Source of the DNA: a virus
Length of the DNA: 64,000 nt
Virus record (IMG/VR): IMGVR_UViG_3300028392_000060
Coordinates: 1-64,000 of that record
Strand: one strand, 5' to 3'
Of the stretch, positions 1,841-23,055 are shown one piece after another. Positions within the stretch are counted from its first letter, which is position 1; each line of letters opens with the position of its first letter. The notes under the pieces are model-generated. The model was not told the origin of the DNA, made no database searches, and saw only the letters and a program-made list of their open reading frames with translations. The position numbers and the translations under genes are program-made.

Positions 1841-2063
1841 GATATCTTTAGATTATGAATCAGCACATAAATTTGTAGAAAAGAATGCATCACAAGGATT
1901 TTTTTGGGATGGATGGACCATTGTAAAATGGTCTCCAAGTAATAACGGATATATGCAACCTAATGGTATGTTTAAAAATAATAAATGGGGATATTCAAAT
2001 CGCTATAATTTAACTTCCAAAGGTACTTGGGAGATTAGCGATAAATATGCCAACTATATTTAA
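1833..2063 (+). CDS. hypothetical protein
   Basis: ORF overlapping neighbours in an operon; Trp-rich FFWDGWTIV. Confidence 0.75.
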   Translation: MPKISLDYESAHKFVEKNASQGFFWDGWTIVKWSPSNNGYMQPNGMFKNNKWGYSNRYNLTSKGTWEISDKYANYI

Positions 2064-2361
2064 CAAATTAGGAATTGATGAACAAGACGTAAAATGGTAT
2101 CATCTTGCTGCTTGCAAAAATATGTCAATAAATTGGTTTTATGATGATTATGAAATTGATAAAGAGTTAGCAAAACAAGTTGATCAAATTTGTTTACATT
2201 GCCCAGTTATTAAACAATGTCATGCAGAAGGCATTGAAAATAAAGAAAAGGGTGTAAGAGGTGGGGTTTATATGGATCTTGGAAGACCAGATAAACAACA
2301 TAATTCCCATAAATTACCAGAAATATGGAAACAATTAAAGAAGCTTCATGGCAAAAATTAG
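2047..2361 (+). CDS. whiB: WhiB-family Fe-S transcription factor
   Basis: W..LAAC...ICLHCPVIKQC...GVRGG: four Cys plus the G(V/I)WGG-like turn. Confidence 0.88.
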   Translation: MPTIFNKLGIDEQDVKWYHLAACKNMSINWFYDDYEIDKELAKQVDQICLHCPVIKQCHAEGIENKEKGVRGGVYMDLGRPDKQHNSHKLPEIWKQLKKLHGKN

Positions 2362-9271: not shown

Positions 9272-9318
9272 ATTAATTAATTAGCACGACACGACATTTT
9301 ATATATTTAAATAAAGAA

Positions 9319-9348
9319 AAGCCCCGAGCAACATGAAACTCGGGGCTA
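9319..9348 (-). terminator. intrinsic terminator closing the leftward island
   Basis: AGCCCCGAG/CTCGGGGCT stem followed by a U-tract on the minus strand. Confidence 0.75.
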
Positions 9349-9368
9349 GGACTTAGTGTAGCGTCCCT

Positions 9369-9665
9369 TTATACTTGTAGGTACTCAACAGATCTCGGCA
9401 CCTGTCTACCTACATTCCCCGTCAGACCCAACTCCTCTAGGGAAAGATTTAAGTATTTACATATAGATTGTGTTTCTGCTAAGTGGAATGGAACTATTTT
9501 GGCTGTTGCCATTATGTTTATGTAGTTAACCATATACTGAAGCAATGATTCATTTACATAAGCACTCTCGTGAAGCATTTTGTAAGCCAAAGCAGCAGGC
9601 GATAGGTCAGCGTGGCCTAGGCCCTCAACTATCTGCTTGTGTAACTTCTCGCTACGCACTGTCAT
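9369..9665 (-). CDS. hypothetical early protein
   Basis: ORF track; coupled operon. Confidence 0.7.
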   Translation of the reverse strand: MTVRSEKLHKQIVEGLGHADLSPAALAYKMLHESAYVNESLLQYMVNYINIMATAKIVPFHLAETQSICKYLNLSLEELGLTGNVGRQVPRSVEYLQV

Positions 9666-9961
9666 TACTCTGTCTCCTCAACTGCTAAGATTAAATTTTC
9701 CTTAACTAGCCAGTCTACTACATCAGAGCCCTCTATGTCAAACCCGCCCCAAGGTGTTGCCCAGAATGTATTCCAGATTGTTTTTAGATCTGTGTTAGGG
9801 GCCAAGATTGAATCCCATTCGTCTAGTTCCAGGACCACATCACGTATGGTGTCCCATACAAACAGCCAACCCAGCGAGAAACCGACGGGGAGTGTCTGAA
9901 GATCATCTAGAATACTATTAAACTTATCATACAACTCATCACCTAGATTTTCATTAACCAT
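9665..9961 (-). CDS. hypothetical acidic early protein
   Basis: Likely start MVNENL at 9961 behind SD GAAGG (track extends to 10024). Confidence 0.65.
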   Translation of the reverse strand: MVNENLGDELYDKFNSILDDLQTLPVGFSLGWLFVWDTIRDVVLELDEWDSILAPNTDLKTIWNTFWATPWGGFDIEGSDVVDWLVKENLILAVEETE

Positions 9962-10184
9962 TTGCCTTCTCCAAATCTGATTGATAGAATATGATATCAT
10001 AGCACATATTGTAGATATTTTCAATAGCGTCTAGATAACCAATTGCCCATTGTTCATTTCCAAAATCCTTATGTTGCCATTCATACATAATGTTTTTCAG
10101 CTCCCCCTGCAGTACATCAATTAAAGGAACATTATGTTCTATGGCCTTTTTCATTTGTGGAGATAAATCATTGTAATTAAGCAT
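9954..10184 (-). CDS. hypothetical early protein
   Basis: ORF track; overlaps both neighbours. Confidence 0.7.
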   Translation of the reverse strand: MLNYNDLSPQMKKAIEHNVPLIDVLQGELKNIMYEWQHKDFGNEQWAIGYLDAIENIYNMCYDIIFYQSDLEKANG

Positions 10185-10908
10185 TTGTCATCTCCCTATG
10201 ATCTTCGCACTTGTCTATATCTGCACCATAGAAGCAATTGCGGCATACTTCATTTTCACAATCTTCACACCACATATCAGAAGGGTCTCCAATATATTTG
10301 TAATCACATTCATTGCATTGCCAGTTCCAAGATGTATCTGATATTACTTCACCTCTAAGGATTTCCATTTCCCCGCCCCAGCCTGTCTCCTCTTCATATG
10401 AAAGCGTAAAGAGTAGTTCAGGATACTGAGAAGATAGATTAGTTAATGCTTCATTAGGAACACCCCAAGCAGTATTAAAGTTATAATAAACTACTTTGTT
10501 ATCGCCATTGTCAACAGGACCTTCCATACGTGTATCAGGATATTGTTCTTCACTAGACACGGCAACGTCCCACTTAACACCCCAGTTGCGGAGATTCCAG
10601 TTGTACCAATCATTGCCGACCTCTTGTTCGGCGTGGACTTCTTTCCACATATCTTCGCCTTTGGCCTCAAGGTTAACTTTTGCCTTTGCGTGATTGTGAT
10701 ACGCCTCTAAGTCTGTTGGTTTAATTATATTCCAGAATGCGAAAAGCGGGGCGGGATAAAGAATATCTTTTGCAACACTTGTCTTAGTATTAATATCCCA
10801 AGCGTGGGGATGAAATACTTTAAATGGTTGATTCATTTGATTTACTAATTTAGTTACAGATTCAGGATTACCTTCTATAGTTAATCCATTAAATACCCAG
10901 TTTGGCAT
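10177..10908 (-). CDS. DUF1281/YubB ferredoxin-like domain protein with C-terminal Cys cluster
   Basis: MPNWVFN, WYNWNLRNWGVKWD, FNTAWGVP, YPELLFTLSYEE. Confidence 0.75.
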   Translation of the reverse strand: MPNWVFNGLTIEGNPESVTKLVNQMNQPFKVFHPHAWDINTKTSVAKDILYPAPLFAFWNIIKPTDLEAYHNHAKAKVNLEAKGEDMWKEVHAEQEVGNDWYNWNLRNWGVKWDVAVSSEEQYPDTRMEGPVDNGDNKVVYYNFNTAWGVPNEALTNLSSQYPELLFTLSYEEETGWGGEMEILRGEVISDTSWNWQCNECDYKYIGDPSDMWCEDCENEVCRNCFYGADIDKCEDHREMTNA

Positions 10909-11090
10909 TATTTATTCTCCTCATCAAAGGCTCCATAACTTGGAGTTATTCCGCTAAGCCACTCATAATAACTTAATTTTCCCCCTAATTCCCAGCATTG
11001 TAAACAGAAAGTGCCAAATTGTTGTGCTACAACATAAGCAGGAATTGGAGAAATTGTTTTACAATTAGTACAAGTTATTCTTTCAGTCAT
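10908..11090 (-). CDS. small Zn-finger protein
   Basis: CTNC...CLQC; SD AAAGGA; downstream of the promoter at 11118. Confidence 0.7.
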   Translation of the reverse strand: MTERITCTNCKTISPIPAYVVAQQFGTFCLQCWELGGKLSYYEWLSGITPSYGAFDEENK

Positions 11091-11117
11091 TATTGTCCTT
11101 TCGTTGGGTAGGGTCTT

Positions 11118-11139
11118 ATTGTAGCATAGGGTACTGACA
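11118..11139 (-). promoter_or_regulatory. PafBC/RecA-NDp-type promoter
   Basis: TGTCAG-TACCCTATGC-TA-CAA-T. Confidence 0.75.
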
Positions 11140-11144
11140 TTTGG

Positions 11145-11378
11145 CTAGTCCCGCACCTTGTCAGTAGCCTCATCGTAAAGCAACCAGTCTATATCTATAG
11201 AATAGACAATCGTAATTGATTTGTCTAAAAGCTGGAGAACCACATGGTCCCCCTCTGTGTATCCAATTAGTTTAGCATCTTGAATTTGTTCACGACTAAA
11301 AGATCTATCTTCGTAAACGGCGGGAATGTGATTAAAGTAATAAGTATCACTATGAATACTATCCATTATATCAAGCAT
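11145..11378 (-). CDS. hypothetical early protein
   Basis: Likely start MLDIMDS overlapping the upstream stop (track extends to 11453). Confidence 0.55.
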   Translation of the reverse strand: MLDIMDSIHSDTYYFNHIPAVYEDRSFSREQIQDAKLIGYTEGDHVVLQLLDKSITIVYSIDIDWLLYDEATDKVRD

Positions 11379-11592
11379 TAGAATACTCCAATTCATTTTG
11401 TGATAAAGTAAATACAGTAAAATTAACACCATTGTTATAACAGAAGTTAACACAATTTATCAGAGATTCTGATTCATATAGTGGATATCCACCTGTATCG
11501 TAATCATTATCTAAATCAGGATATACTTCAAACATATTTATACCCCCTGGTGATACTGAATAATCTATTTCATATATTCTAAAGGTTTCCAT
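11371..11592 (-). CDS. hypothetical acidic protein, leaderless
   Basis: TGC-TAAAAT ends 6 nt before the ATG. Confidence 0.7.
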   Translation of the reverse strand: METFRIYEIDYSVSPGGINMFEVYPDLDNDYDTGGYPLYESESLINCVNFCYNNGVNFTVFTLSQNELEYSNA

Positions 11593-11635
11593 AGGTAGAT
11601 TTTAGCATATCGTAATCGTAAAAGTCTAATCGTAA

Positions 11636-11700
11636 TCTCATATTTTGAGATATATTTCAGTGATATATATCACATATCGTAAAGTGTGATTTTAATCACA
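11636..11700. promoter_or_regulatory. operator stack: TCTCA-N5-TGAGA plus two CRP-type boxes
   Basis: 11636-11650; AGTGA-N6-TCACA 11659-11674; TGTGA-N6-TCACA 11685-11700. Confidence 0.65.
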
Positions 11701-11874
11701 CCCCCGCGCCCAGCTGTCCCACTTTGTCAAGTGGGACACGCAAGGTTTTACATATAACTTACTATAAATTCCATAGTCATATGCAAATTACAATCACAAT
11801 CATTTTTTGCAGAATCAAAGTGATCTTGATATTGCTCATAGATAAGTGTTACAAGTTCATCTATAGTGTATGGT

Positions 11875-12240
11875 TTATGTGTTGTGGTAATTGTGAACCT
11901 CTTCCATATATGAAATAAAACTTTCAAAACTGTGCCAATGTCCATTATCATTTACCATTTGAGTAGTGAAATCTATTTCTACTACTTCGTCCATATAAGG
12001 TGTGTCAGCATTTGCTACATAGATACCGAAGCCTGTTTCGCTATCCCGCCCATCTTTTGTTAGTTGGTCAATTACAATGCGGAGAGCATACGGAACATCT
12101 CCCATATCAGTACGCTTTTTTGCGGCGGTAAGTGCTAACGCTAAATCCTCACGCCAAGTTGTTTCGCCCCAATGTGAATATAGCACAATGTTAGGCATAT
12201 CTAACTCTGTTTTAAATACGAAATTAACTCTTGCTCCCAT
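11875..12240 (-). CDS. hypothetical early protein
   Basis: MGARVNF...LYSHWGE, a recurrent phage early-gene pattern; SD GGAGG. Confidence 0.75.
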   Translation of the reverse strand: MGARVNFVFKTELDMPNIVLYSHWGETTWREDLALALTAAKKRTDMGDVPYALRIVIDQLTKDGRDSETGFGIYVANADTPYMDEVVEIDFTTQMVNDNGHWHSFESFISYMEEVHNYHNT

Positions 12241-12314
12241 TAAAGTATTCCTCCTATCGCTATAAATACTCCAAGTAATACTGCTAAGATTAAAACTACT
12301 GCCGTTGAGTTCAT
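12240..12314 (-). CDS. 24-aa single-TM peptide MNSTAVVLILAVLLGVFIAIGGIL (not in track)
   Basis: Leaderless after TTGACT-N17-TAGGAT; TAATG-coupled to the next gene. Confidence 0.55.
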   Translation of the reverse strand: MNSTAVVLILAVLLGVFIAIGGIL

Positions 12315-12336
12315 TATCATATCCTATCAAATAAGT

Positions 12337-12363
12337 GGCGGGAAGTCAATTACCCTTCCCGCC
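12337..12363 (-). terminator. GC-rich stem-loop
   Basis: GGCGGGAAG/CTTCCCGCC, just past the 12372 stop. Confidence 0.6.
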
Positions 12364-12371
12364 CAAGTTAA

Positions 12372-12788
12372 TTAGAGATATTGAGCGATAGACTTCATAG
12401 TGGAAGCATTAACTGTTTCCTCATCTGTCATACGCAAGATGTTAAGAGCGTTTGTGATTTCCTCTTTGGAATTTTTGTATTCATAATTTGCCATTTGGTT
12501 AAACTCACGGGTTGGCTCAACAGGGAAGTTAGAGCCTTTTGTGCTGACATCAAAATCAACATTTAGAGTTTCACTCCAAGAACGATACCCTGTGCGAAGG
12601 TTAGTTGCGGTTGCGATATTAGCGAGAGCGAAGTCTTTTAGACTATCTTGCCAAGCCTTGTATGCTTCTTGGAACTTTGCTTCGTTGGCTTCTTGACCAG
12701 CGTAGTCTATCTCAATTTGGGCTAACTTAGCCTCTAGTGCCTTGATTACCTTTGGTGTTGCCACCTTTACTGTTATTGCTCTAGCCAT
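12372..12788 (-). CDS. hypothetical early protein
   Basis: SD AAAGGA; promoter at 12822. Confidence 0.8.
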   Translation of the reverse strand: MARAITVKVATPKVIKALEAKLAQIEIDYAGQEANEAKFQEAYKAWQDSLKDFALANIATATNLRTGYRSWSETLNVDFDVSTKGSNFPVEPTREFNQMANYEYKNSKEEITNALNILRMTDEETVNASTMKSIAQYL

Positions 12789-12821
12789 TTGGTTTCCTTT
12801 GTTAGTTGGGTTGGTAGGATT

Positions 12822-12843
12822 ATTATATCAGGGGGGTCTGACA
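12822..12843 (-). promoter_or_regulatory. PafBC/RecA-NDp-type promoter
   Basis: TGTCAG-ACCCCCCTGA-TA-TAA-T. Confidence 0.75.
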
Positions 12844-12918
12844 TAAACTTAAGTGCTAGTTCTTACTTACGACATTGGGCTAGAACTCTAGCAAACTGCC
12901 CCTGTTTCGTTGTCCCCT

Positions 12919-12940
12919 ATTATATCATAGGGGTCTGACA
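12919..12940 (-). promoter_or_regulatory. PafBC/RecA-NDp-type promoter
   Basis: TGTCAG-ACCCCTATGA-TA-TAA-T. Confidence 0.75.
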
Positions 12941-13168
12941 TTATGCTTCGTGCTTGGGCAAATCAACACGCACATTTTTCTGTATGTTAGAACTAATTAA
13001 CTTACCTTGAAAAGCGACCATCATTTTTGCCAATTTCATTTCATCACCAGATGATAGTTCAATCTGGTTATCATTTAAGACTACATATTCAACGCCATAT
13101 TGAATAGCCTTGCCCAATCCATAGCCCATTTGGGCTTTGGACGGGACTTCTAAAGTAATAACTGCCAT
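12941..13168 (-). CDS. hypothetical early protein
   Basis: ORF track; SD GAGGA. Confidence 0.7.
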   Translation of the reverse strand: MAVITLEVPSKAQMGYGLGKAIQYGVEYVVLNDNQIELSSGDEMKLAKMMVAFQGKLISSNIQKNVRVDLPKHEA

Positions 13169-13169
13169 A

Positions 13170-13793
13170 TTAGGATTCCTCTCTTACATCATAAATAGAA
13201 TAATCATTTACATCTACATCAGCACCATAAGTGGATACTGAAAGTTCATCATTTAACATAGTTTCTAAATCATAATTATCGGTTAAAGATACACGCATAA
13301 TTCCACTTACTTCTATTGTGGCAGAAAACTCTATTTCTTTACTTAGTTCAAGATTAAATAAATCTGCGATAGTTGTTAAAGTATCTTGGTCATTACTGTC
13401 ATCATAAGCGTCAATAATTATGTTATGAAGTGTAACTAACTTGTTGTTGAAATCAGCAACATCACTCTTAAGTTGACGGGCTTCACGAAGTTTCCACTCT
13501 AAATCATTAACTTTATCAGTTTGATAAGTTGTTTCGTTATTCTCAATTATCTTGTAGGTAACGAGTAGGTTTGGGTTATATTCTGTTGAAATATCCATTT
13601 GTTCCTCTTTCTTTGTAGTTGGGTCTATTGTAACATCTACCACCGACATCAGTATCATTTGTGTATCTGTCATACATTTTGGACACATATCACTTTGTGG
13701 AAGTCCATTAGATTTAATAGTCATTACAATATGGCTATCGCAATTTGGGCATACATAATCCCATTTAAACCAGGTTTCATTTTTATTTGTCAT
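13170..13793 (-). CDS. hypothetical protein, N-terminal Zn ribbon; internal start at 13598
   Basis: CPNC...CPKC; leaderless ATG after TAAAAT; internal promoter, SD GAGGA and in-frame MDISTEY. Confidence 0.7.
   Translation of the reverse strand: MTNKNETWFKWDYVCPNCDSHIVMTIKSNGLPQSDMCPKCMTDTQMILMSVVDVTIDPTTKKEEQMDISTEYNPNLLVTYKIIENNETTYQTDKVNDLEWKLREARQLKSDVADFNNKLVTLHNIIIDAYDDSNDQDTLTTIADLFNLELSKEIEFSATIEVSGIMRVSLTDNYDLETMLNDELSVSTYGADVDVNDYSIYDVREES
13627..13648 (-). promoter_or_regulatory. PafBC/RecA-NDp-type promoter inside coding sequence
   Basis: TGTCGG-TGGTAGATGT-TA-CAA-T. Confidence 0.7.
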
Positions 13794-13800
13794 AGCGAGT

Positions 13801-13900
13801 ATTTTAGCAGGTTACTCACGGGTAATCAAACGACACGCCGTAAAACTCAGGGTGATTTTTATCACACTCGTAACGACACGCCCGACCTCGGGGGGCGCGG
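13801..13900 (-). promoter_or_regulatory. upstream module: sigmaA promoter, TACT-N4-RGTA, GACAC, CRP box, GC-rich repeat
   Basis: TTGATT-N17-TAAAAT; CGACACGCCG 13831-13840; GGTGA-N6-TCACA 13851-13866; repeat 13875-13900. Confidence 0.7.
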
Positions 13901-13902
13901 CC

Positions 13903-13940
13903 CATGCATAATTATACATTGCAATGCATATTTATACATT
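13903..13940. promoter_or_regulatory. tandem ARG-box-like operator (ArgR)
   Basis: CATGCATAATTATACATT-gc-AATGCATATTTATACATT (18+2+18). Confidence 0.6.
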
Positions 13941-13949
13941 GAAGCTTTG

Positions 13950-14025
13950 CGATCCGTACGGGATTTGAACCCGTGGTCTCTACAGTGACAGTGTAGTGAA
14001 TTAAACCAAACTATTCTAACGGACC
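13950..14025 (-). tRNA. tRNA-Asp(GTC)
   Basis: Acceptor GGTCCGT/ACGGATC, anticodon arm CTACA-CTGTCAC-TGTAG, T arm ACGGG-TTCAAAT-CCCGT, discriminator G; CCA not encoded. Confidence 0.93.
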
Positions 14026-14031
14026 TTGCGG

Positions 14032-14059
14032 TGAGCAGTTTTTACACTTGCTCAGGTGT
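14032..14059 (-). ncRNA. H-type pseudoknot copy A
   Basis: ACAC-C-UGAGCA-A-GUGU-AAAAAC-UGCUCA. Confidence 0.6.
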
Positions 14060-14067
14060 TGCGAATT

Positions 14068-15096
14068 TTATTTCGCTAGTGCTAAGACTTGCTTAACAAT
14101 TTTATTTTTTTCAGCAGTTACAACAGGGTCAAAACCACTTGCGCCTGCCATTAGGCTATCGCCATCTTTTCGGGCTGTGCGATAATAATCTAGGCGTTCT
14201 GTGAGAGCATTTACAACACCCCACGCAGTACCCTTGATATTATTATTGGTAGGCGAATTGTGATAAAGTTCATCAAGCAATACAACCTTATTTTCCCATT
14301 TCTTGATTGAACCCTTTTTGTCCAATTCAGGCTTTGGGTACATCTTGTTAATGATTTCTGAAAACTTTTTATCAGTAACAGAAATTGCGAATAGTTCTTG
14401 CGCTTGCTTTTCAAATTCATCAGCATATGCGAAAGTTAATCCGAGAGCCTCTCGTGCTTGAGCAATTTTACCATCAACAGTTTGTGTATGACGGATTTTG
14501 AAACTCTGCTTTGCTTTTTTCATAGCAAAATTAAGAGTGTTTTGGCACATAACACGAACAGGGGTAATAGCAGATTGAACCGCTACTGAGCCATCGTGTG
14601 AAGTCCAAACAATTAGATAAAGTTTTGTTTCATCGTTCACACCTTTAGGGTCTAATACGATTGTGCGGGGAACGGACATTGTGCCAAACACAACATTGCC
14701 ACCCTTGAGAGAGCCTGCGCTTTCCCAAAATACATCTTGATTTCCATCGTGTAAGTTATCAGCAAACGAAAATAATTCCTCGTTTTGAACTTCTTTATAG
14801 CGTGAACCTACAACGGAGAGAACATCAGTTTGTCCCGCAGTATAAGGGTTATCACGAATTACAAGTTGATTATCCTTGAGAGAGTTCCAATTCTCAGGGA
14901 GATAATCAGCAACAGGAGCAAGGCGAACGTTCCAATTAGATAGTTTAGCACCATCTAACATTTGAGCAGTTGTTACTGCTTCATCTTGATTGAATACCTT
15001 ATTGGCAAAAGAGTGCCAAGCGGGTACTGTGCGGAGATTTACGGCAAGAGAAACTTCTCCGCCTTCAACCTCTGATTTATGAGCCAAGTTGGTCAT
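14068..15096 (-). CDS. DUF932-family (phage/plasmid-like) protein
   Basis: PAWH, VVGSRYKEVQN, ESAGSLKGG, TSHDGS, TPVRVMCQNTL, IRHT, GTAWGVVNALTE. Confidence 0.88.
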   Translation of the reverse strand: MTNLAHKSEVEGGEVSLAVNLRTVPAWHSFANKVFNQDEAVTTAQMLDGAKLSNWNVRLAPVADYLPENWNSLKDNQLVIRDNPYTAGQTDVLSVVGSRYKEVQNEELFSFADNLHDGNQDVFWESAGSLKGGNVVFGTMSVPRTIVLDPKGVNDETKLYLIVWTSHDGSVAVQSAITPVRVMCQNTLNFAMKKAKQSFKIRHTQTVDGKIAQAREALGLTFAYADEFEKQAQELFAISVTDKKFSEIINKMYPKPELDKKGSIKKWENKVVLLDELYHNSPTNNNIKGTAWGVVNALTERLDYYRTARKDGDSLMAGASGFDPVVTAEKNKIVKQVLALAK

Positions 15097-15125
15097 ATGA
15101 TTTCCTTTCTTTGTTTGTTAAATTG

Positions 15126-15147
15126 AGTATAACATATGGCACCGACA
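15126..15147 (-). promoter_or_regulatory. PafBC/RecA-NDp-type promoter
   Basis: TGTCGG-TGCCATATGT-TA-TAC-T. Confidence 0.78.
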
Positions 15148-15196
15148 TTTGTCCACTTTAAATAATCATTTTAAGACACATTCAACCAATTTTGCG

Positions 15197-15264
15197 TGTG
15201 AGAAATATCACAGAGATTTTTTCGGCGTGTCGTAAATGCGACACGCCCGACCTCGGGGGCGCGG
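15197..15264. promoter_or_regulatory. CRP box, inverted GACAC pair and GC-rich repeat
   Basis: TGTGA-N6-TCACA 15197-15212; GGCGTGTCG...CGACACGCC; repeat 15240-15264. Confidence 0.65.
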
Positions 15265-15557
15265 CCCAAAAATTTAATTTTGTCAAGTCAACACGCAGCT
15301 ATTTTTTAAATAAAAAAAATATTTTTAATATAACAATAATGGCCACCGTGTAAAATAATTGTGAAAACACGTTGACCATTAATTGCATTTTATCCCCTCG
15401 TTTAAATATATTTTATAAGATCTTTTGTTTTTCTACAATTTTTCTAGCCTTTGCAGATAACGGTTTACCTGGGCAGTTCATATGAAAATAAGTTATTAGC
15501 ATATCTTCTTCATTTGTTGTTGTGGCCCCGCATTTATGGCAGGACCACGATTCTTTT

Positions 15558-15881
15558 TTATTCTTCATCAGTGTACACGCATTCTGCACAGTCGCATTCC
15601 CATGAATGCGGTAGCCATGCGTCTAAGTGATGCGCTTCTGCAATTGCGGATGCGGGAGCACTTTCTTCTCCACGCCATGACACGCCTTCGGGAAGTTTAA
15701 TCAAGCGAGAATAATCTTCTTCATGATATGCATCAATTGCATCTAGGCAAGGTTGCACCATTGAAGAGGGGACGGGTGGGTAGTGATTACCCTTCAAGTG
15801 AATTTTTAATTGTGTGCGAATATCTATAGCCATATCCGCTAGATCATTTGCAAAAACACTTCCCATATTAGTTATCTCCAT
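15558..15881 (-). CDS. hypothetical early protein
   Basis: HLKGNHYPPVP...HHLDAWL; start may be MGSVFA. Confidence 0.75.
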   Translation of the reverse strand: MEITNMGSVFANDLADMAIDIRTQLKIHLKGNHYPPVPSSMVQPCLDAIDAYHEEDYSRLIKLPEGVSWRGEESAPASAIAEAHHLDAWLPHSWECDCAECVYTDEE

Positions 15882-16152
15882 TTTCTATTGAATCAAACAT
15901 ATTTTGAATTTCTAGGGCTTCATCCGCCATTTTATCAAAGTCCTCACCCATTAGCAAGTGCGACACTCTAGTAGCGACTACACTAGCAAGTAAAGTAGAA
16001 TAAGCAAACATCATTTCAGAAATACGATCTAATTTTTCTGAATTACCTTCAGCATAGTCCCAAGCAATTTCACGAGCAGCATTCATCACTTCAATATCAA
16101 TTACTGAATCAGCAGTCGCTTCTCTAATTTCAAAGAAAGTAGAAATACTCAT
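15868..16152 (-). CDS. hypothetical early protein
   Basis: ORF track; TAATG coupling. Confidence 0.7.
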   Translation of the reverse strand: MSISTFFEIREATADSVIDIEVMNAAREIAWDYAEGNSEKLDRISEMMFAYSTLLASVVATRVSHLLMGEDFDKMADEALEIQNMFDSIENGDN

Positions 16153-16358
16153 TATTCCACCACCTTTAATAATGCGTAAGAATTATTTTCGTTTAATTCA
16201 TCTAAGATATCTGTTAGTTTAGGAACGATTAACGCCTTAAGCATATCCTCAAGCATAGCCACTTGTTGTTCATATGGGAGAGATAGTAGACGGCGGGCAG
16301 TAGGATTATTTTCATCCAATTCTGTTTCAAACTTTAGCGTGTGAGGGATTTTTACCAT
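16152..16358 (-). CDS. hypothetical early protein
   Basis: SD AAAGGA; promoter at 16393. Confidence 0.7.
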   Translation of the reverse strand: MVKIPHTLKFETELDENNPTARRLLSLPYEQQVAMLEDMLKALIVPKLTDILDELNENNSYALLKVVE

Positions 16359-16392
16359 TTATTTATTGTCCTTTTCTTTGTTGGGAGTAGTT

Positions 16393-16414
16393 AGTATATC
16401 ACGAGCCACCGACA
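16393..16414 (-). promoter_or_regulatory. PafBC/RecA-NDp-type promoter
   Basis: TGTCGG-TGGCTCGTGA-TA-TAC-T. Confidence 0.78.
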
Positions 16415-16478
16415 TTAGTTCGGTGGAGAAAGTGTTATCTATGAAATTATTCCATAGTGTATCAAGTTGATTATTCAT

Positions 16479-16682
16479 TTATTCCCCTTCGTCATATTCT
16501 AGGGACATAGGGAAGGCATCTAGCCCCATAAATCCCATATCTTCTTGATCATAGCACTCAGGGCAGACATAGTCATCGCCATATATTTCATATTCATCTA
16601 CGGAGTAAAAAGTTTCTTTAGCCCCGCATATTTCATAGTATAGACACGCTACTACAAAAATTTCATCTTGTTGATTTATCAT
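16479..16682 (-). CDS. small acidic Zn-finger protein
   Basis: Start MINQQD behind SD GAAAGG; C...CG...CPEC. Confidence 0.7.
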   Translation of the reverse strand: MINQQDEIFVVACLYYEICGAKETFYSVDEYEIYGDDYVCPECYDQEDMGFMGLDAFPMSLEYDEGE

Positions 16683-16713
16683 AAGTTTACCTTTCTTGTT
16701 GTTGATATTGGCA

Positions 16714-16779
16714 AGTATAACATAGGGCACCGACACGATCAAACAACACGCCGCAAAACTCAGGGTGATTAAAATCACA
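16714..16779 (-). promoter_or_regulatory. dual promoter (PafBC-type plus TTGATC -35) with GACAC-like site and CRP box
   Basis: TGTCGG-TGCCCTATGT-TA-TAC-T 16714-16735; CAACACGCCG 16744-16753; GGTGA-N6-TCACA 16764-16779. Confidence 0.72.
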
Positions 16780-16972
16780 CTCGTAACACGGCGTGTCGGC
16801 TTGACAGCCGCGGCAAAAAATTTGCAGCTTTTGCAAACTACAAATTTATTTTTTTATTTATTCAAATTTATTTTTATATTTATTTTTTCTTGAATAAATT
16901 TTTTTATTTTTAATTGGTGTTGCCGCATTACTGCGACGCAATTCTTGAATGCGTTTTACTTTTTCCATAATT

Positions 16973-17176
16973 TTATTTACCCCCAATTTTACCACCACGA
17001 TACAAAATTTTTGTATGTAATTTCCCGCTTGGCTCTAATAAATTAACAGTTGCGTATTCATTAGCAAATCCCCAATCAACAAAACTGCGATAAGAATTTA
17101 CTGCGTCTAACGCATTATCTAACACCATTGACCAATGCGGTGCTTTGCCATCATAGGCACAAGTTATTTTGTACAT
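16973..17176 (-). CDS. hypothetical early protein
   Basis: ORF track; SD GGAG. Confidence 0.7.
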   Translation of the reverse strand: MYKITCAYDGKAPHWSMVLDNALDAVNSYRSFVDWGFANEYATVNLLEPSGKLHTKILYRGGKIGGK

Positions 17177-17268
17177 TAGTTATTTCTCCAAACATTTATT
17201 GCATAGGGCATAATTATTTGAGAAATAAACACGATAACATCTAACGCATTTGCTTAGTTTAGTTTTCA

Positions 17269-17457
17269 TTAGTTATTCTCCCAATTCTTGAATAGTTGGT
17301 GAAAATCTGCAATTTTTTCCGCAGAAATTTGAGTTGGATTACACTCACAATAATCAAAATCAAAATCTCCGTCTGGTGATGACCAACCTGTGAAACCTTG
17401 ACCATAGCACTCAGGGCAAGTTAAAATTTCGGTGATTACTTCTTTTACTTTAGACAT
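17269..17457 (-). CDS. small Zn-binding protein
   Basis: Likely start MSKVKE behind SD AAAGGA; CPECYGQG...CECNP. Confidence 0.7.
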   Translation of the reverse strand: MSKVKEVITEILTCPECYGQGFTGWSSPDGDFDFDYCECNPTQISAEKIADFHQLFKNWENN

Positions 17458-17499
17458 TAGTTGTCCTTTCTTGTTTGACATTTACACTTTGTTAATTGT

Positions 17500-17521
17500 A
17501 TTCTATCACCCACCACCGACA
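17500..17521 (-). promoter_or_regulatory. PafBC/RecA-NDp-type promoter
   Basis: TGTCGG-TGGTGGGTGA-TA-GAA-T. Confidence 0.78.
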
Positions 17522-17560
17522 AGGTGGCGAGTGTTGAACAGTTATCGCATAAGTAAATCA

Positions 17561-17782
17561 TTACTCATCTACTTTGATATAAACAGTTGCGAAAAAATCA
17601 GGCTTAGGGTAACCTTCGCCTGTGTAAGTTGGGCGAACTTTACAAGCGAACGCATAAACGCCTTCGCTTAAACCGCAAATATCTTTTCGCAATTTTGCGT
17701 ATTGGATAATTCCGTCTTGACCTGTTCGGGCATAAGAACGGCTACGATAGTATTTTCCCTCTAGGGCTTCTGAGATTAGCAT
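17561..17782 (-). CDS. hypothetical early protein
   Basis: SD GAAGG; promoter at 17813. Confidence 0.7.
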   Translation of the reverse strand: MLISEALEGKYYRSRSYARTGQDGIIQYAKLRKDICGLSEGVYAFACKVRPTYTGEGYPKPDFFATVYIKVDE

Positions 17783-17889
17783 TATTTGCTACCTTCTTTC
17801 TTTGTTGAGTTAATTATAACATTTACCACCGACACGGCAGACTGACGGCGGGTTTCAAGTACGTGTGCCTTGAATTCATCTAGGTTCAT
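17782..17889 (-). CDS. 35-aa hypothetical protein MNLDEFKAHV...
   Basis: SD GAAGG; the track extension to 18066 crosses the regulatory module. Confidence 0.55.
   Translation of the reverse strand: MNLDEFKAHVLETRRQSAVSVVNVIINSTKKEGSK
17813..17834 (-). promoter_or_regulatory. PafBC/RecA-NDp-type promoter inside coding sequence
   Basis: TGTCGG-TGGTAAATGT-TA-TAA-T. Confidence 0.75.
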
Positions 17890-17920
17890 TATTTGACCTT
17901 CTTTCTTTCTTGTTATGGCA

Positions 17921-18086
17921 AGTATACCAAAACCCACTGACATTATTCTACTTACTAGCCAGTAATTCCATATTTTGAGACGCTCAAGCGGTGTGATAAA
18001 TATCACACGACACGCCCGAAAGATGAATTTTAGATGAATTTTAATCCACACGTAATCCACAGACACGCCCGACCTCGGGGGCGCGG
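17921..18086 (-). promoter_or_regulatory. complete upstream module
   Basis: TGTCAG-N10-TATACT 17921-17942; TTACTAGCCAGTAA 17952-17965; TTCCA-N5-TGAGA 17966-17980; CRP box 17992-18007; GC repeat 18062-18086. Confidence 0.72.
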
Positions 18087-18258
18087 CAAAAAATTTGCAG
18101 CTTTTTAATTCTGCAAATCTTTTTTATTTTTATTTATTTTTATTTATTTTTTTTATTTAAAATTTTTAAAAATTTCTTCAACAATTTTTAACTGTTCATC
18201 GTTAAGATGTTCAATTTGAATTGCATCTGCAAATCCAAAAATATCTTTTTGATTTTCA

Positions 18259-18453
18259 TTAGTCATTGAAACATGCTTCCCAAAAACGATCCGCATCAAA
18301 ATTTGGATTATCGTTTTCAAAAATTGTTATGAAACGATTTACCAAACCATTTTCAAATTCATTTGTAAAAGATGGGCGGGTTTCCAAATTATTTTCTTTT
18401 AAATAATCATTAAGGATTTTAGCCGTAGCGATATAAGTTTTTCTAGTCATCAT
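18259..18453 (-). CDS. hypothetical early protein, paralog of 19482..19661
   Basis: MMTRKTYIATAKILN...DNPNFDADRFWEACF. Confidence 0.8.
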   Translation of the reverse strand: MMTRKTYIATAKILNDYLKENNLETRPSFTNEFENGLVNRFITIFENDNPNFDADRFWEACFND

Positions 18454-18546
18454 TTATTTATTCTCTTCAATCTCATCTAGTAGTTCCCAAAGAATTGGCT
18501 CTAACGCTTTTGCGCTTTCATCTAATTTTTCTTGTAGTGTTTTCAT

Positions 18547-18753
18547 TTATTTATAGTATTCCATTTCTGTTAGTAAGTGAGCATAACCATCTTTATTAGA
18601 CTTTAGCGATAATTCGCAAGGCTCGCATTTCCATTCATATTTTAATGTTCTACCTGTTCCCAATGTTGCAACAGCCCAATGGGTCATTTTACGAGAACAC
18701 ACAGGGCAGTAGCAAGAAATTTCTTGCCCTAGCCCACCAATTTTAATAGTCAT
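18547..18753 (-). CDS. small Zn-ribbon protein
   Basis: CPVC...CEPC. Confidence 0.7.
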   Translation of the reverse strand: MTIKIGGLGQEISCYCPVCSRKMTHWAVATLGTGRTLKYEWKCEPCELSLKSNKDGYAHLLTEMEYYK

Positions 18754-18947
18754 TATTTAACCACGCTTTCTTTAAATTCTTTTTGATTACAAGTTAAGGC
18801 AAGGATTTCACCCTTAGCATTTACGATACGAGCATTTACTATATCGTGTTCATCACTAACATTAGTGATTTCATTTATTAGGTAATTCTCATTTTTCCAA
18901 ATAAAGAGACACCCTACGAATAATTTATTTATAAGTGTTAAAGTCAT
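18753..18947 (-). CDS. hypothetical early protein
   Basis: Likely start MTLTLINK, TAATG-coupled. Confidence 0.6.
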   Translation of the reverse strand: MTLTLINKLFVGCLFIWKNENYLINEITNVSDEHDIVNARIVNAKGEILALTCNQKEFKESVVK

Positions 18948-19141
18948 TAGATACACACCACGCATTCACACTTAGGGGCATTAACAGATAATAAAATTTT
19001 TAACAACGCTTTACGCTGTCCAAAATTTAAGCCATAAGTGGATTTACACCCACCATTATTAAAATCGTGTATGATACGATTTTCTAATTCCGCACTAATA
19101 TTTAGTGCCTTACCTATATTTATTTTATTTAGTGTAGTCAT
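18947..19141 (-). CDS. hypothetical early protein
   Basis: SD AAAGGTGGT; promoter TTGATT-N17-TAAACT at 19177-19205. Confidence 0.7.
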   Translation of the reverse strand: MTTLNKINIGKALNISAELENRIIHDFNNGGCKSTYGLNFGQRKALLKILLSVNAPKCECVVCI

Positions 19142-19261
19142 CTTAGACCACCTTTCTTTATTGTTTAACTATCGTTAGTTTAGCAGACTTTCTGCCGAAA
19201 ATCAAGGCGACACGCCGTAGATTTCTAACTTTTTTTTCTATATTTAATTTTCTATAATGGA

Positions 19262-19419
19262 ATTGTAACATAAAAAATCGCTACTGTCTAGTATACTCGT
19301 GAGTAGTCTCAATATATGGAGCGTGGGCTTTGTGATAAAAATCACAAAGATTTTTTTAATCGTACGTAAATGCGACACGCCCGACCTCGGGGGCGCGGCG
19401 AAAAACGAACAGATGTTCG
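19262..19419 (-). promoter_or_regulatory. complete upstream module ending in a LexA box
   Basis: TAGACA-N17-TACAAT; TACTCGTGAGTA; TCTCA-N5-TGGAG; CRP box 19331-19346; GC repeat 19374-19398; CGAAC-AGAT-GTTCG 19406-19419. Confidence 0.7.
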
Positions 19420-19446
19420 CATTAAAAAAATAGCTGTAAAAAAAAT

Positions 19447-19475
19447 TAAGCAGTTTTAAAACTTACTTAGGTTTT
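19447..19475 (-). ncRNA. H-type pseudoknot copy C
   Basis: AAAAC-C-UAAGUA-A-GUUUU-AAAAC-UGCUUA. Confidence 0.55.
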
Positions 19476-19481
19476 TATTTT

Positions 19482-19661
19482 TTAAACGTTTAAATTTTTA
19501 AAACACTCTTCCCAAAATCTATCGCTATCAAATCTTTCGTTATCAGCGAAAAACATTTCGGAAAAATCATTTACTAAATCTTCAAACACTTCTAATTTCA
19601 TTTCGCCACCATAAGAATTTAAAATCTCTGCGGTTGCTACGTAGTCTTTTCTTGTCATCAT
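19482..19661 (-). CDS. 59-aa paralog of 18259..18453 (not in track)
   Basis: MMTRKDYVATAEILN...DNERFDSDRFWEECF; SD AAGGA. Confidence 0.8.
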   Translation of the reverse strand: MMTRKDYVATAEILNSYGGEMKLEVFEDLVNDFSEMFFADNERFDSDRFWEECFKNLNV

Positions 19662-19787
19662 TTTTGTTCTTTTCCTTTTCTTTAGTTAATAGATTAAGTG
19701 GGGCATAGGTTGATTACGGAGACTTACTCGCACTCTTGCCTTAAGACTCAGCGAAGCCCGACCCACTTAATTATATTTATTATAGCA

Positions 19788-19958
19788 TTACTTAGATGTT
19801 TTAACCATTGCTAAACGCTTTGAGCCATTTGCTAAAGTTAAACCAACACGAGTTACTTTGTTAGAAATTGGAGCGAAAGAATTTATTCGTCCAGTAATTC
19901 CAGTTGTTGATGTTGTGAATAAATCACCGATTTGGTAAGTGTATCCTTGTATTGTCAT
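19788..19958 (-). CDS. 56-aa protein, paralog of 20039..20203 (not in track)
   Basis: MTIQGYTYQIGDLFTT...TRV. Confidence 0.8.
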   Translation of the reverse strand: MTIQGYTYQIGDLFTTSTTGITGRINSFAPISNKVTRVGLTLANGSKRLAMVKTSK

Positions 19959-19990
19959 TTATTTTATATCCTTTTCTTTTGTTGGGTTGT

Positions 19991-20019
19991 TGAGCAGTTT
20001 TATATCTTGCTCAGGATAT
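19991..20019 (-). ncRNA. H-type pseudoknot copy B
   Basis: AUAUC-C-UGAGCA-A-GAUAU-AAAAC-UGCUCA. Confidence 0.6.
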
Positions 20020-20038
20020 TTAGGGTATTTCCCTAAAC

Positions 20039-20203
20039 TTATGCGAGTGAAACTGTTGTGTAACGCTCTGTTCCATCAACATCAAGCAGAACACGAGTTA
20101 GTGTTTTGCTAATTGGTTCAATAGCCTTGATAACGCCTGTTACCTTGCTTTTTTGTGTAGTGAATAAATCACCGATTTGGTAAGTCTTGTTATTTATAGT
20201 CAT
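20039..20203 (-). CDS. 54-aa protein, paralog of 19788..19958 (not in track)
   Basis: MTINNKTYQIGDLFTT...TRV; SD AAGGA. Confidence 0.8.
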   Translation of the reverse strand: MTINNKTYQIGDLFTTQKSKVTGVIKAIEPISKTLTRVLLDVDGTERYTTVSLA

Positions 20204-20235
20204 TTTTTTCCTTTTCTTTTGTTGTTGTTAGTGAT

Positions 20236-20257
20236 AGTCTACCATAGACTACCGACA
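20236..20257 (-). promoter_or_regulatory. PafBC/RecA-NDp-type promoter
   Basis: TGTCGG-TAGTCTATGG-TA-GAC-T. Confidence 0.75.
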
Positions 20258-20853: not shown

Positions 20854-21118
20854 ATTAGTTACCTCTATTCTTTTAATTAGATTGAGAACCTTTCTCAATT
20901 TCTTTAATACTGTAATTATAGCACACAAAATCGGAAAAGTCAAGCGACACGCCGTTAATTACACGCTTGTAATTAGTGATATACACCACAAAACGCCCTA
21001 TTTCTAGACATACTGGCGAGTAATGTCTAATATTCGGGCGCACTATTATTTTTTTATTTTTTTATTTAAAAAGTGTATCATGCATTTTAAAAATCCATTC
21101 ACATTTTGACCAAATGTG

Positions 21119-21132
21119 GTTTCACGTGAAAC
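21119..21132. promoter_or_regulatory. parS centromere-like site
   Basis: Perfect palindrome GTTTCACGTGAAAC, intergenic. Confidence 0.8.
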
Positions 21133-21192
21133 AATTTTGAGGGGAGTGGCATAATGTTTTCTATTAACTATCTTAGAAAAATATCGTGGCAT

Positions 21193-21981
21193 TTAAATCT
21201 TCAAATCCAAATCTGTAATGTAATAGGTTTCATAGAAGTTTTGAGAAATTCTACGATTTAATATATAGTAGAAAATCTGGCGGGATATAGAAAGCTCATC
21301 AAAATCAAAACTATCCAGATACTCTATAGCTATTTTAGCATCATTACTATCTATAGCATGTTTTCCATTAAGAGGACTGGCACTTATTTTATCAAAACAC
21401 TTATTTACTATGCTAAGATCACGCAATATTTTGTCGGGAGACCAAGAATCTTCCCCCCGATCCCTTAAAGCTGGATAAATATGACATGGAGAAATAGCAA
21501 AAGTACCTCTTGTCCAATGTACATTAGGATATTTTGTTCTAATTACAGATTCTTCTTCTTCAAAATATTCTATAAGGCGTAAAACCCTAGAATTTTCATT
21601 TTTTATAGCATTTTTCCATCTTGTATCAGCAATATGTTGTTTTCCATTACGATTTCGTGATTGTGAAAAGACAGGAAGGCGAGAAATTAAATCATTTGCT
21701 TTAATTTCTTTAGAATTATAAGACTTTCTCTCTATTTGATAATTAACTTCTTCTATAGAGGTTCTTTTTGGCCTAATTTTGCTTAATTCAGACAGTTCTG
21801 CATCTGTGCATGATAATAAATACTCATTTTGAGTATAATGAGCTTCTAAACCATATTGTAAGTGTTTAAAACCAGATGCGGGGATTATAAAAAAATATTT
21901 ATCAGTATAAATATGATAAGAATCTTCACTAGATACATGTAAATATTTAATATTGTGACATAAATCACTAATTGGTTTCAT
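21193..21981 (-). CDS. hypothetical protein
   Basis: Likely start MKPISDL at 21981 (track extends to 22053). Confidence 0.65.
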   Translation of the reverse strand: MKPISDLCHNIKYLHVSSEDSYHIYTDKYFFIIPASGFKHLQYGLEAHYTQNEYLLSCTDAELSELSKIRPKRTSIEEVNYQIERKSYNSKEIKANDLISRLPVFSQSRNRNGKQHIADTRWKNAIKNENSRVLRLIEYFEEEESVIRTKYPNVHWTRGTFAISPCHIYPALRDRGEDSWSPDKILRDLSIVNKCFDKISASPLNGKHAIDSNDAKIAIEYLDSFDFDELSISRQIFYYILNRRISQNFYETYYITDLDLKI

Positions 21982-23039: not shown

Positions 23040-23055
23040 TTCTACTTTTTCGGCC

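What the first reader, a model, noticed from the sequence alone, without database searches (positions are those of the whole stretch)
11118..20257. Phage early island driven by 11 PafBC/RecA-NDp DNA-damage-response promoters
Seen: TGTCRG-N10-TA-N3-T occurs exactly, always on the minus (coding) strand, at 11118, 12822, 12919, 13627, 15126, 16393, 16714, 17500, 17813, 17921 and 20236. Nearly all lie 30-45 nt upstream of an SD and start codon, and most lack a TTGACA-type -35. I noticed none in the structural region. Established: this is the mycobacterial RecA-NDp motif, where the ssDNA-activated WYL regulator PafBC reprograms sigmaA to read a -26 element, independent of LexA. Inference: the phage wires its host-takeover genes into the host ssDNA/DNA-damage sensor, so injected or nuclease-attacked DNA could switch on its own early programme. 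A phage-encoded WYL mimic outside the window is the alternative.
Basis: partly seen in the sequence, partly recalled or inferred. Interest (0 to 1): 0.92.

Follow-up and report, generated by a model that had tools for sequence, protein, structure and literature searches.

The report
Phage promoters copying host PafBC boxes
An uncultured phage of actinobacteria starts a block of small genes from eleven promoters built exactly like the host promoters that the DNA-damage activator PafBC switches on, so it probably borrows that host switch, though nothing has been tested at the bench.

Summary
TGTCRG-N10-TAN3T occurs 11 times, all on the minus strand between 11118 and 20257; 1.14 are expected by chance. 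There are no further copies in the 73-kb record. Ten of the 11 sit 27-42 nt upstream of an SD-preceded ATG.

The motif and its spacing equal the published PafBC consensus, whose 5' part lies at -28 to -23 (PMC8635444).

The phage is not mycobacterial. It has about 35% GC and is uncultured. Its closest cultured relatives are Streptomyces phages of the Stanwilliamsviridae. It encodes WhiB, so an actinobacterial host is likely.

Eighty IMG/VR relatives carry 983 copies on the gene strand against 6 on the other, with spacing fixed at 10. The same pattern lies upstream of recA in 22 of 27 published sampled actinobacterial genomes. Small-genome actinobacteria carry pafB-pafC.

I found no WYL, PafC-type HTH or sigma region 2 in this record or in 13 relatives that are at least 93% complete.

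Use of host PafBC is the best reading (about 0.6) but is untested. All 11 sites also carry a TGn extended -10, so they may work without an activator.

This scan has noted the same thing in at least 84 other genomes. My literature searches listed no paper reporting it.

The parts
20236..20257 (-). PafBC-type promoter (TGTCGG, 10 nt, TAGACT; TGn extended -10). ATG of a 54-aa ORF (20039-20203) lies 32 nt downstream.
17921..17942 (-). PafBC-type promoter (TGTCAG...TATACT). ATG of a 35-aa ORF (17782-17889) lies 31 nt downstream.
17813..17834 (-). PafBC-type promoter (TGTCGG...TATAAT). ATG of a 73-aa ORF (17561-17782) lies 30 nt downstream.
17500..17521 (-). PafBC-type promoter (TGTCGG...TAGAAT). 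SD-preceded ATG of a 62-aa ORF (17269-17457) lies 42 nt downstream.
16714..16735 (-). PafBC-type promoter (TGTCGG...TATACT). ATG of a 67-aa ORF (16479-16682) lies 31 nt downstream.
16393..16414 (-). PafBC-type promoter. It heads a run of ORFs: 16152-16358, 15868-16152 and 15558-15866.
15126..15147 (-). PafBC-type promoter of the DUF932 gene (14068-15096). It also has TGGACA 18 nt upstream of the -10. The box is kept at this position in most of the 67 distinct upstream sequences from relatives.
13627..13648 (-). PafBC-type promoter. ATG of a 142-aa ORF (13170-13598; weak DUF5718 match below cut-off) lies 28 nt downstream.
12919..12940 (-). PafBC-type promoter, the upstream member of a tandem pair. 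No ORF and no stable RNA fold lie before the next promoter.
12822..12843 (-). PafBC-type promoter, the downstream member of the tandem pair. ATG of a 138-aa ORF (12372-12788) lies 33 nt downstream.
11118..11139 (-). PafBC-type promoter. It heads ORFs 10908-11090, 10177-10908 (Api92-like C-terminal domain), 9954-10184, 9665-9961 and 9369-9665.
9369..20257 (-). Island of about 35 small minus-strand ORFs with wide intergenic gaps. Almost none matches a known family. It also holds tRNA-Asp (13949-14025).
20915..20943 (-). Canonical promoter candidate (TTGACT, 17 nt, TATAAT, with TGn) on the same strand. It is one of a second promoter class, along with 25844-25872 and 19262-19290.
2047..2361 (+). 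WhiB-like protein (104 aa). It marks an actinobacterial host and is the only recognisable transcription factor among 70 non-structural ORFs.

Best explanation
The eleven sites are real promoters read by the host housekeeping RNA polymerase (SigA type). In them the usual -35 hexamer is replaced by the '-26 element' TGTCRG, placed exactly 10 nt upstream of a TAnnnT -10. This is the architecture of actinobacterial DNA-damage promoters such as recA. At those promoters the ssDNA-activated WYL heterodimer PafBC inserts between the DNA and sigma region 4, a mechanism called 'sigma adaptation'.

The phage encodes no recognisable PafBC, WYL protein or sigma factor. The most likely reader is therefore the host's own PafBC, which is made constitutively. 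Single-stranded DNA produced during infection would then turn the island on or boost it. Possible sources are processed genome ends, replication intermediates and nuclease attack.

Shown here:
- the motif, its strand, its spacing and its conservation;
- its identity with host recA promoters;
- pafBC in sampled actinobacteria with small genomes;
- no phage copy found.

Inferred:
- that PafBC binds these sites;
- that ssDNA is the trigger;
- that the genes are early or counter-defence genes.
For: 1. Exactness and enrichment. There are 11 sites against 1.14 expected, all on the coding strand.

2. The consensus and position match PMC8635444: tGTCgg(N10)tA(N3)T, with the 5' part at -23 to -28 and no -35 (passages).

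3. Conservation in relatives. In 80 of 80 IMG/VR relatives (1.35 Mb) there are 983 copies on the gene strand and 6 on the other.
- Spacing of 10 nt gives 983 copies, against 12 at 9 nt and 3 at 11 nt.
- At this geometry TGTCAG plus TGTCGG account for 719 of 3129 TGnTAnnnT sites. The next most common hexamer has 26.
- In 5 complete relatives the copies cluster in one block of about 7-11 kb, all on one strand there.
- The box is kept upstream of the orthologous DUF932 gene while its flanks vary.

4. Host side.
- The exact pattern lies within 400 nt upstream of the RecA domain in 22 of 27 published genomes sampled from the class of an actinobacterial MAG. The backwards control pattern scores 0 of 27.
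- Positions 7-9, which the search pattern does not constrain, show the same preferred triplets in hosts and phage: TGG, TGC and ACC.
- All 5 small-genome actinobacteria examined have adjacent pairs of WYL genes.
- In a 1.5-Mb genome (recA locus 48% GC) the pair reads WYL+WCX then HTH_PafC+WYL, followed by tatC. Recalled, not tested here: this is the pafB-pafC-tatA-tatC gene order of mycobacteria.
- In that genome the pattern also precedes genes for a RadA-like protein, a LysM protein, a DUF6504 protein and a Panacea-domain protein.

5. Actinobacterial host. WhiB is present. The relatives are Streptomyces and Rhodococcus phages.

6. No phage reader found.
- No WYL in this record or in 5 complete relatives.
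- No HTH_PafC above cut-off and no Sigma70_r2 in this record plus 13 relatives that are at least 93% complete.
- WhiB was the only recognisable transcription-factor family in the output of these scans. They covered 70 window ORFs and 133 ORFs of complete relative G002. In four of the five calls only the first 25 families were listed.

7. A second, canonical -35/-10 promoter class sits on the same strand. This suggests two modes of regulation.
Against: - The host is unknown, so pafBC in the true host is not shown.
- All 11 sites have a TGn extended -10, as do 554 of 749 distinct sites in relatives. None of the 22 host recA sites has it. Extended -10 promoters can work without a -35 (own knowledge). 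Some + strand gaps in this phage show TGnTAnaAT with no clear upstream element. The sites may therefore fire without any activator.
- There are no transcript data.
- Pfam and PHROGs cannot exclude a phage activator with a new fold. Most island ORFs have no family.
- The nearest cultured relatives lack the motif. Jay2Jay has 2 hits against 5 for the control. Comrade has 0 and Mandalore 3 against 4 for the control. So the motif is a trait of this clade, not of the family.
Confidence: 0.6

Rival explanations
1. A phage-encoded activator of unrecognised fold, made from the canonical promoters, reads the TGTCRG box and recruits host RNA polymerase. This would work like T4 MotA/AsiA at middle promoters. 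The likeness to the PafBC box would then be convergence or mimicry.
For: - Two promoter classes lie on one strand, as in early/middle phage programmes.
- Most ORFs of the island and of the upstream operon 21046-25812 have no family.
- PMC8635444 itself likens PafBC to T4 AsiA/MotA (passage).
Against: - No WYL, HTH_PafC above cut-off or sigma region 2 was found in this record or in the near-complete relatives searched: 5 for WYL, 13 for the other two.
- WhiB was the only recognisable transcription-factor family in the scans. It is shared with Streptomyces phages, and the two I checked, Comrade and Jay2Jay (a Jay2Jay WhiB was not confirmed here), lack the motif.
- The box, its spacing and its position 7-9 preferences match host recA promoters too closely for an unrelated reader.
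Confidence: 0.15
2. The sites are constitutive extended -10 SigA promoters that need no activator. The TGTCRG box then does something else. It could be a sink that soaks up host PafBC and blunts the host DNA-damage and defence response. Or it could only modulate promoter strength.
For: - TGn is present at 11 of 11 sites and at 0 of 22 host recA sites.
- Some other gaps in this phage show a TGn -10 with no clear upstream element.
- A 1.5-Mb actinobacterial genome has only 11 exact copies of the pattern, against 15 for the control. One phage genome therefore carries as many as a whole host, and replication would multiply them.
- PafBC is cited as affecting phage resistance (Rafique et al. 2025, seen only as a citation in PMC12848934).
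Against: - The box is always at one fixed distance and orientation from a -10. That fits a promoter element better than a free-standing decoy.
- Canonical promoters in the same phage keep a -35 as well as TGn. This hints that TGn alone is not enough for full strength.
- The sink idea and PafBC-dependent activation are not mutually exclusive.
Confidence: 0.18
3. The box is the operator of a phage repressor or of another host regulator (for example stoperator-like or WhiA-type sites) that happens to overlap the promoters.
For: - One-directional short sites scattered through intergenic DNA recall the stoperators of cluster A mycobacteriophages (own knowledge, not tested).
Against: - The base before the box is A in 72% and G in 5% of 826 distinct sites. 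So it does not form the GTGTC/GACAC word attributed to WhiA.
- No repressor-like HTH protein was found.
- The strict 10-nt spacing to the -10 and the identity with recA promoters are explained better by PafBC.
Confidence: 0.05

Closest known systems
PafBC-dependent (RecA-NDp) promoters of Mycobacterium, Streptomyces and other Actinobacteria, read by 'sigma adaptation' (PMC8635444, PMC11804915)
   Same: - The hexamer TGTCRG is the same, as is the 10-nt gap to TAnnnT and the lack of a -35.
- The preferred bases after the hexamer (TGG, TGC, ACC) are the same.
- The pattern was found upstream of recA in 22 of 27 published sampled actinobacterial genomes.
   Different: - These sites are on a lytic-type phage genome, 11 in 9 kb, upstream of small genes with no known family rather than repair genes.
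- All carry a TGn extended -10, which the host recA sites lack.
- The DNA is AT-rich.
- Dependence on PafBC is untested.
T4 middle promoters (MotA box at -30 plus -10; AsiA/MotA 'sigma appropriation')
   Same: A phage promoter class in which an element closer than -35 replaces the -35 hexamer, so that the host primary sigma factor is redirected. It sits beside ordinary early promoters.
   Different: - T4 encodes its own activator and co-activator. Here none was found, and the box is that of a host activator.
- The box sequence differs (the MotA box is recalled, not tested here).
Terminal-repeat small-gene block of Streptomyces phages of the Stanwilliamsviridae (e.g. Jay2Jay, genes 3-25)
   Same: - Same genome layout: a run of small leftward genes, each with its own upstream gap, next to the glycosyltransferase, ribonucleotide reductase, portal, protease and capsid genes.
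- Shared DUF932, WhiB and capsid proteins at 44-54% identity.
   Different: Jay2Jay, Comrade and Mandalore show no enrichment of the PafBC pattern. By eye, the Jay2Jay gaps look like -35/-10 promoters with a TAGACT-type -10.

Membership tests
PafBC-dependent (RecA-NDp) promoter | tGTCgg hexamer at -28 to -23 | tested here: met
   11 of 11 sites. The consensus comes from PMC8635444.
PafBC-dependent (RecA-NDp) promoter | Exactly 10 nt between the hexamer and a SigA-type TAnnnT -10 | tested here: met
   11 of 11 here. In relatives, 983 copies at 10 nt against 12 at 9 nt and 3 at 11 nt.
PafBC-dependent (RecA-NDp) promoter | No -35 consensus | tested here: met
   The logo of 826 distinct sites has 0.05-0.39 bits at the six -35 positions. 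Only 1 of the 11 sites has a -35-like hexamer.
PafBC-dependent (RecA-NDp) promoter | The host encodes PafB and PafC | tested here: inconclusive
   The host is unknown. All 5 sampled small-genome actinobacteria have adjacent WYL gene pairs. One pair was typed as WYL+WCX and HTH_PafC+WYL next to tatC.
PafBC-dependent (RecA-NDp) promoter | Transcription depends on PafBC and is induced by ssDNA or DNA damage | not testable with these tools
   Needs reporter assays or in vitro transcription.
PafBC-dependent (RecA-NDp) promoter | Transcription starts a few nt after the -10 | not tested
Extended -10 SigA promoter | TG one base upstream of the -10 hexamer | tested here: met
   11 of 11 here, 554 of 749 distinct sites in relatives, and 0 of 22 host recA sites.
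T4-type middle promoter (sigma appropriation) | Phage-encoded activator and co-activator | tested here: inconclusive
   No WYL, HTH_PafC or sigma region 2 was found, and WhiB was the only transcription-factor family seen. The MotA and AsiA families were not searched by name, and a new fold cannot be excluded.
Stanwilliamsviridae-like actinophage | Shared core proteins and gene order with Streptomyces phages of clusters BE and BK (cluster names recalled) | tested here: met
   Capsid 53-55%, DUF932 about 50% and WhiB 44-49% identity. The gene order is the same as in Jay2Jay and Comrade. Formal family placement was not computed.

The most novel reading that the evidence does not exclude
A whole clade of abundant uncultured actinophages has swapped the -35 element of its early-gene promoters for the recognition box of the host's ssDNA-sensing activator PafBC. 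Infection-generated ssDNA, or a host nuclease attack, would then trigger the phage's own takeover or counter-defence genes. The 10-20 boxes per genome, multiplied by replication, would also drain PafBC from the host DNA-damage and defence regulon. This would be the first natural case of a virus exploiting sigma adaptation.
Probability: 0.4. Interest if true: 0.85.

Novelty: new variant of a known kind. Interest (0 to 1): 0.7.

Why it matters
In the papers I saw (passages of PMC8635444 and PMC11804915), PafBC and sigma adaptation are described only for host DNA-damage genes. If a phage drives a whole gene block through it, the host's ssDNA alarm is also an entry point for viruses, which adds a new type of phage transcription programme.

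It would also offer compact, strong, naturally varied PafBC-type promoters. This record has 11 and its relatives have hundreds. They could be used to dissect the -26 element and the contribution of an extended -10.

The idea can be tested directly with existing M. smegmatis reagents, even though the phage and its host are uncultured.

My searches listed no paper describing PafBC-type promoters on a phage. Paper supplements were not available.

Tried and rejected
- Mycobacterial host: rejected. The window is about 35% GC and the nearest cultured relatives infect Streptomyces.
- Megablast of the island against the phage collection found no match.
Streptomyces phages share the protein, and the two checked, Comrade and Jay2Jay (a Jay2Jay WhiB was not confirmed here), lack the motif.
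- WhiA-type GACAC reading of the box: rejected. The base before the box is A, not G.
- Small RNA between the tandem promoters at 12919 and 12822: there is no stable fold (z = 0.19) and no Rfam match other than the tRNA.
- Host identification through the ribonucleotide reductase: the hits are phage contigs binned into MAGs labelled with many phyla, so they say nothing about the host. One contig, in a MAG labelled Aquiluna, served only as a way into actinobacterial genomes. That MAG shows no genome-wide enrichment (9 hits against 14 for the control) and no exact site within 400 nt of its recA.
- RNA evidence: three metatranscriptome runs hold 18-31% of the island's sampled words.
- Ten cultured actinophages were scanned for the motif: Jay2Jay, Comrade, Mandalore, CaiB, Franzy, Phantasmagoria, Adawi, Audrey, MementoMori and Izel. 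They gave 0-3 hits each, no more than the controls.

Full report
**Observation.** One hundred dinucleotide-preserving shuffles gave a mean of 1.14 and at most 4. The whole 73,470-nt virus record, which CheckV estimates to be 66% complete, has the same 11 copies and no others. The backwards control pattern gives a single hit. Allowing one mismatch adds only 14 sites, and the total of 25 is below the 28 expected. The motif is therefore sharply defined.

Ten of the 11 sites are followed 27-42 nt later by an ATG preceded by an AAAGGA-type ribosome-binding site. The site at 12919 is instead followed 75 nt later by the site at 12822. All 11 sites also have TG one base before the -10 hexamer, an extended -10.

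**What the DNA is.** The window is about 35% GC, so it is not mycobacterial DNA.
- The plus strand from about 26 kb carries a glycosyltransferase and a class II ribonucleotide reductase, then the portal, protease and capsid genes.
- The capsid protein is 53-55% identical to those of Streptomyces phages of about 130 kb.
- The DUF932 protein of the island is about 50% identical to gene 2-5 products in the terminal repeat of Streptomyces phages such as Jay2Jay.
- A WhiB-like protein at 2047-2361 scores above the Pfam cut-off. It is 44-49% identical to the annotated WhiB of 127 Streptomyces and 9 Rhodococcus phage records.
- WhiB is described as exclusive to Actinobacteriota and as a marker of actinophages (PMC10202952, whole text read).
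- The gene order matches Jay2Jay and Comrade of the family Stanwilliamsviridae.

The phage is thus an uncultured relative of that family, and its host is very probably an actinobacterium. The host itself is unknown.

**Conservation.** A search with the DUF932 protein found 155 related IMG/VR stretches, and 80 loci were kept.
- All 80 carry the pattern, with 2 to 19 copies each.
- In 1.35 Mb there are 983 copies on the gene strand and 6 on the other.
- The logo of 826 distinct sites reads AA-TGTCAG-T-S-S, then TG, then TAtAAT. It has no information where a -35 would lie.
- Spacing is fixed: 983 copies at 10 nt, 12 at 9 nt and 3 at 11 nt. At this geometry TGTCAG and TGTCGG make up 719 of the 3129 TGnTAnnnT sites, and the next hexamer has 26.
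- In five relatives that CheckV rates 100% complete (108-120 kb), the copies cluster in one block of about 7-11 kb, where all lie on one strand.
- Upstream of the orthologous DUF932 gene, the box, the TGn -10, the SD and the ATG are conserved while the spacer and flanks vary.

These are promoters under selection.

**Identity with the host motif.** PMC8635444 (passages) gives the in vivo PafBC consensus as tGTCgg(N10)tA(N3)T. The 5' part lies at -23 to -28, and there is no -35. The PafB HTH domain reads the GTC triplet, and PafBC sits between the DNA and SigA domain 4. PMC11804915 (abstract and passages) shows that ssDNA binding to the WYL domains activates PafBC.

I checked the host side directly. 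From an actinobacterial MAG reached, I sampled 60 further genomes of its class, 61 searched in all. I then examined the 30 recA loci that were returned.
- The exact pattern lies within 400 nt upstream of the RecA domain in 25 of 30. Leaving out three unpublished genomes, it lies there in 22 of 27, and the backwards control scores 0 of 27.
- Positions 7-9, which the search pattern leaves free, prefer TGG, AGG, TGC, CGG and ACC in hosts. They prefer TGG, TGC and ACC in this record, and TGG, ACC, TGC and TCC in its relatives.
- All five small-genome actinobacteria examined (1.4-1.9 Mb) have adjacent pairs of WYL genes.
- In a 1.5-Mb genome (recA locus 48% GC) the pair is WYL+WCX followed by HTH_PafC+WYL and then tatC. 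From memory, this is the mycobacterial pafB-pafC-tatA-tatC order.
- That genome has only 11 exact copies of the pattern. They include those before recA and before genes for a RadA-like protein, a LysM protein, a DUF6504 protein and a Panacea-domain protein.

The motif therefore works as a DNA-damage promoter across the class, including in small genomes of lower GC. One phage island carries as many copies as a whole host genome of that size.

**Is there a phage-encoded reader?**
- The WYL domain is not found in this record or in 5 complete relatives.
- HTH_PafC is not found above cut-off in this record plus 13 relatives that are at least 93% complete. There is one hit, at 12.5 bits, below the cut-off.
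- Sigma70 region 2 is not found in the same 14 records.
- Pfam and PHROGs scans of 70 non-structural ORFs of the window show WhiB as the only transcription factor among the families listed (the first 25 of 28 and of 34 families were shown).
- In complete relative G002, 133 ORFs outside the structural module gave the same answer. All 24 families of one half were shown, and 25 of 33 for the other half. One 1095-aa ORF and the 1-50 kb structural part were not scanned.
- WhiB is shared with Streptomyces phages, and the two checked, Comrade and Jay2Jay (a Jay2Jay WhiB was not confirmed here), lack the motif. It is therefore an unlikely reader.

A factor with a new fold cannot be excluded.

**Context in the island.** The same strand also carries candidate promoters with a canonical -35: TTGACT-17-TATAAT at 20943-20915, TTGACA-17-TACGAT at 25872-25844, and TAGACA-17-TACAAT at 19290-19262. 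All three have TGn. The phage therefore seems to use two promoter classes that differ only in the upstream element. This fits two modes of control.

Against this, some plus-strand gaps show a TGn -10 with no clear upstream element, so an extended -10 alone may be enough in this host. The island ORFs have almost no known families. That they are early or takeover genes rests only on their size, their layout and the analogy with terminal-repeat gene blocks.

**Mechanism.** The best-supported reading (about 0.6) is that host RNAP-SigA reads these promoters through host PafBC, so that ssDNA arising during infection switches the island on or boosts it. The rivals are:
- a phage activator of unknown fold (0.15);
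- constitutive extended -10 promoters whose box modulates strength or titrates PafBC (0.18);
- an unrelated operator (0.05).

The sink idea can coexist with activation.

**Novelty.** Five literature searches listed no paper that reports PafBC-type promoters on a phage. I read only listings and the passages cited above, and supplements were closed. One paper cites a 2025 study on PafBC and mycobacteriophage resistance, which I could not read.

Ten cultured actinophages that I scanned show no enrichment. The trait is so far specific to this uncultured clade.

Within this scan the same finding has been made before. One search returned 99 notes in at least 84 genomes, with follow-up verdicts like mine, and one search showed look-alike stretches. 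I class it as a new variant of a known kind: a known host promoter type, used in arrays by a phage.

**Limits.**
- The host is unknown.
- There are no transcript, binding or reporter data.

Noticed in passing
window 19142-19481, 15097-15412, 13599-14067, 11536-11874, 8686-9368 (minus-strand gaps): CRP/GlxR-like palindromes (TGTGA-N6-TCACA) recur in the intergenic gaps of the island. Earlier notes of this scan report the same in relatives.
   Followed up: no
window 18067-18152, 19142-19481, 15097-15412, 13599-14067: A GC-rich element of about 27 nt is repeated in AT-rich gaps. It contains the CGACACGCC word that earlier notes call WhiA-like.
   Followed up: no
window 20915-20943, 25844-25872, 19262-19290 (minus strand): Candidate canonical promoters with a TTGAC-type -35, a 17-nt spacer and a TGn -10 lie on the same strand as the PafBC-type sites.
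   Followed up: partly
window 12822-12940: Two PafBC-type promoters sit in tandem, 75 nt apart. There is no ORF, no stable fold (z = 0.19) and no Rfam match between them.
   Followed up: yes
window 13949-14025 (minus strand): tRNA-Asp (GTC anticodon) lies inside the island, just downstream of the DUF932 gene.
   Followed up: no
window 1538-3892 and 7435-7836 (plus strand): A group of host-like helper genes: GroES (1538-1840), WhiB (2047-2361), thioredoxin (3045-3341), an HslV/proteasome-like peptidase (3338-3892) and SSB (7435-7836).
   Followed up: partly
loci L091-L116: Contigs encoding close relatives of this phage's ribonucleotide reductase (55-89% identity) are binned into public MAGs labelled cyanobacterium, Bacteroidia, Saccharibacteria, archaea and others. 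These are probably phage contigs that were mis-binned.
   Followed up: no
window 15126-15155; relatives: The DUF932 promoter also has TGGACA 18 nt upstream of its -10. GGACA is kept next to the box in relatives, so this promoter may be read in two ways.
   Followed up: partly
window 45013-45040 (plus strand): TGTCAG lies 16 nt upstream of TGcTACAAT in the gap before a late-region gene, which is the wrong spacing for the PafBC type.
   Followed up: no
window 57448 to beyond the window end (record 57448-65103): A very long ORF of about 2550 aa follows the tail genes. It is presumably the tape measure protein.
   Followed up: no
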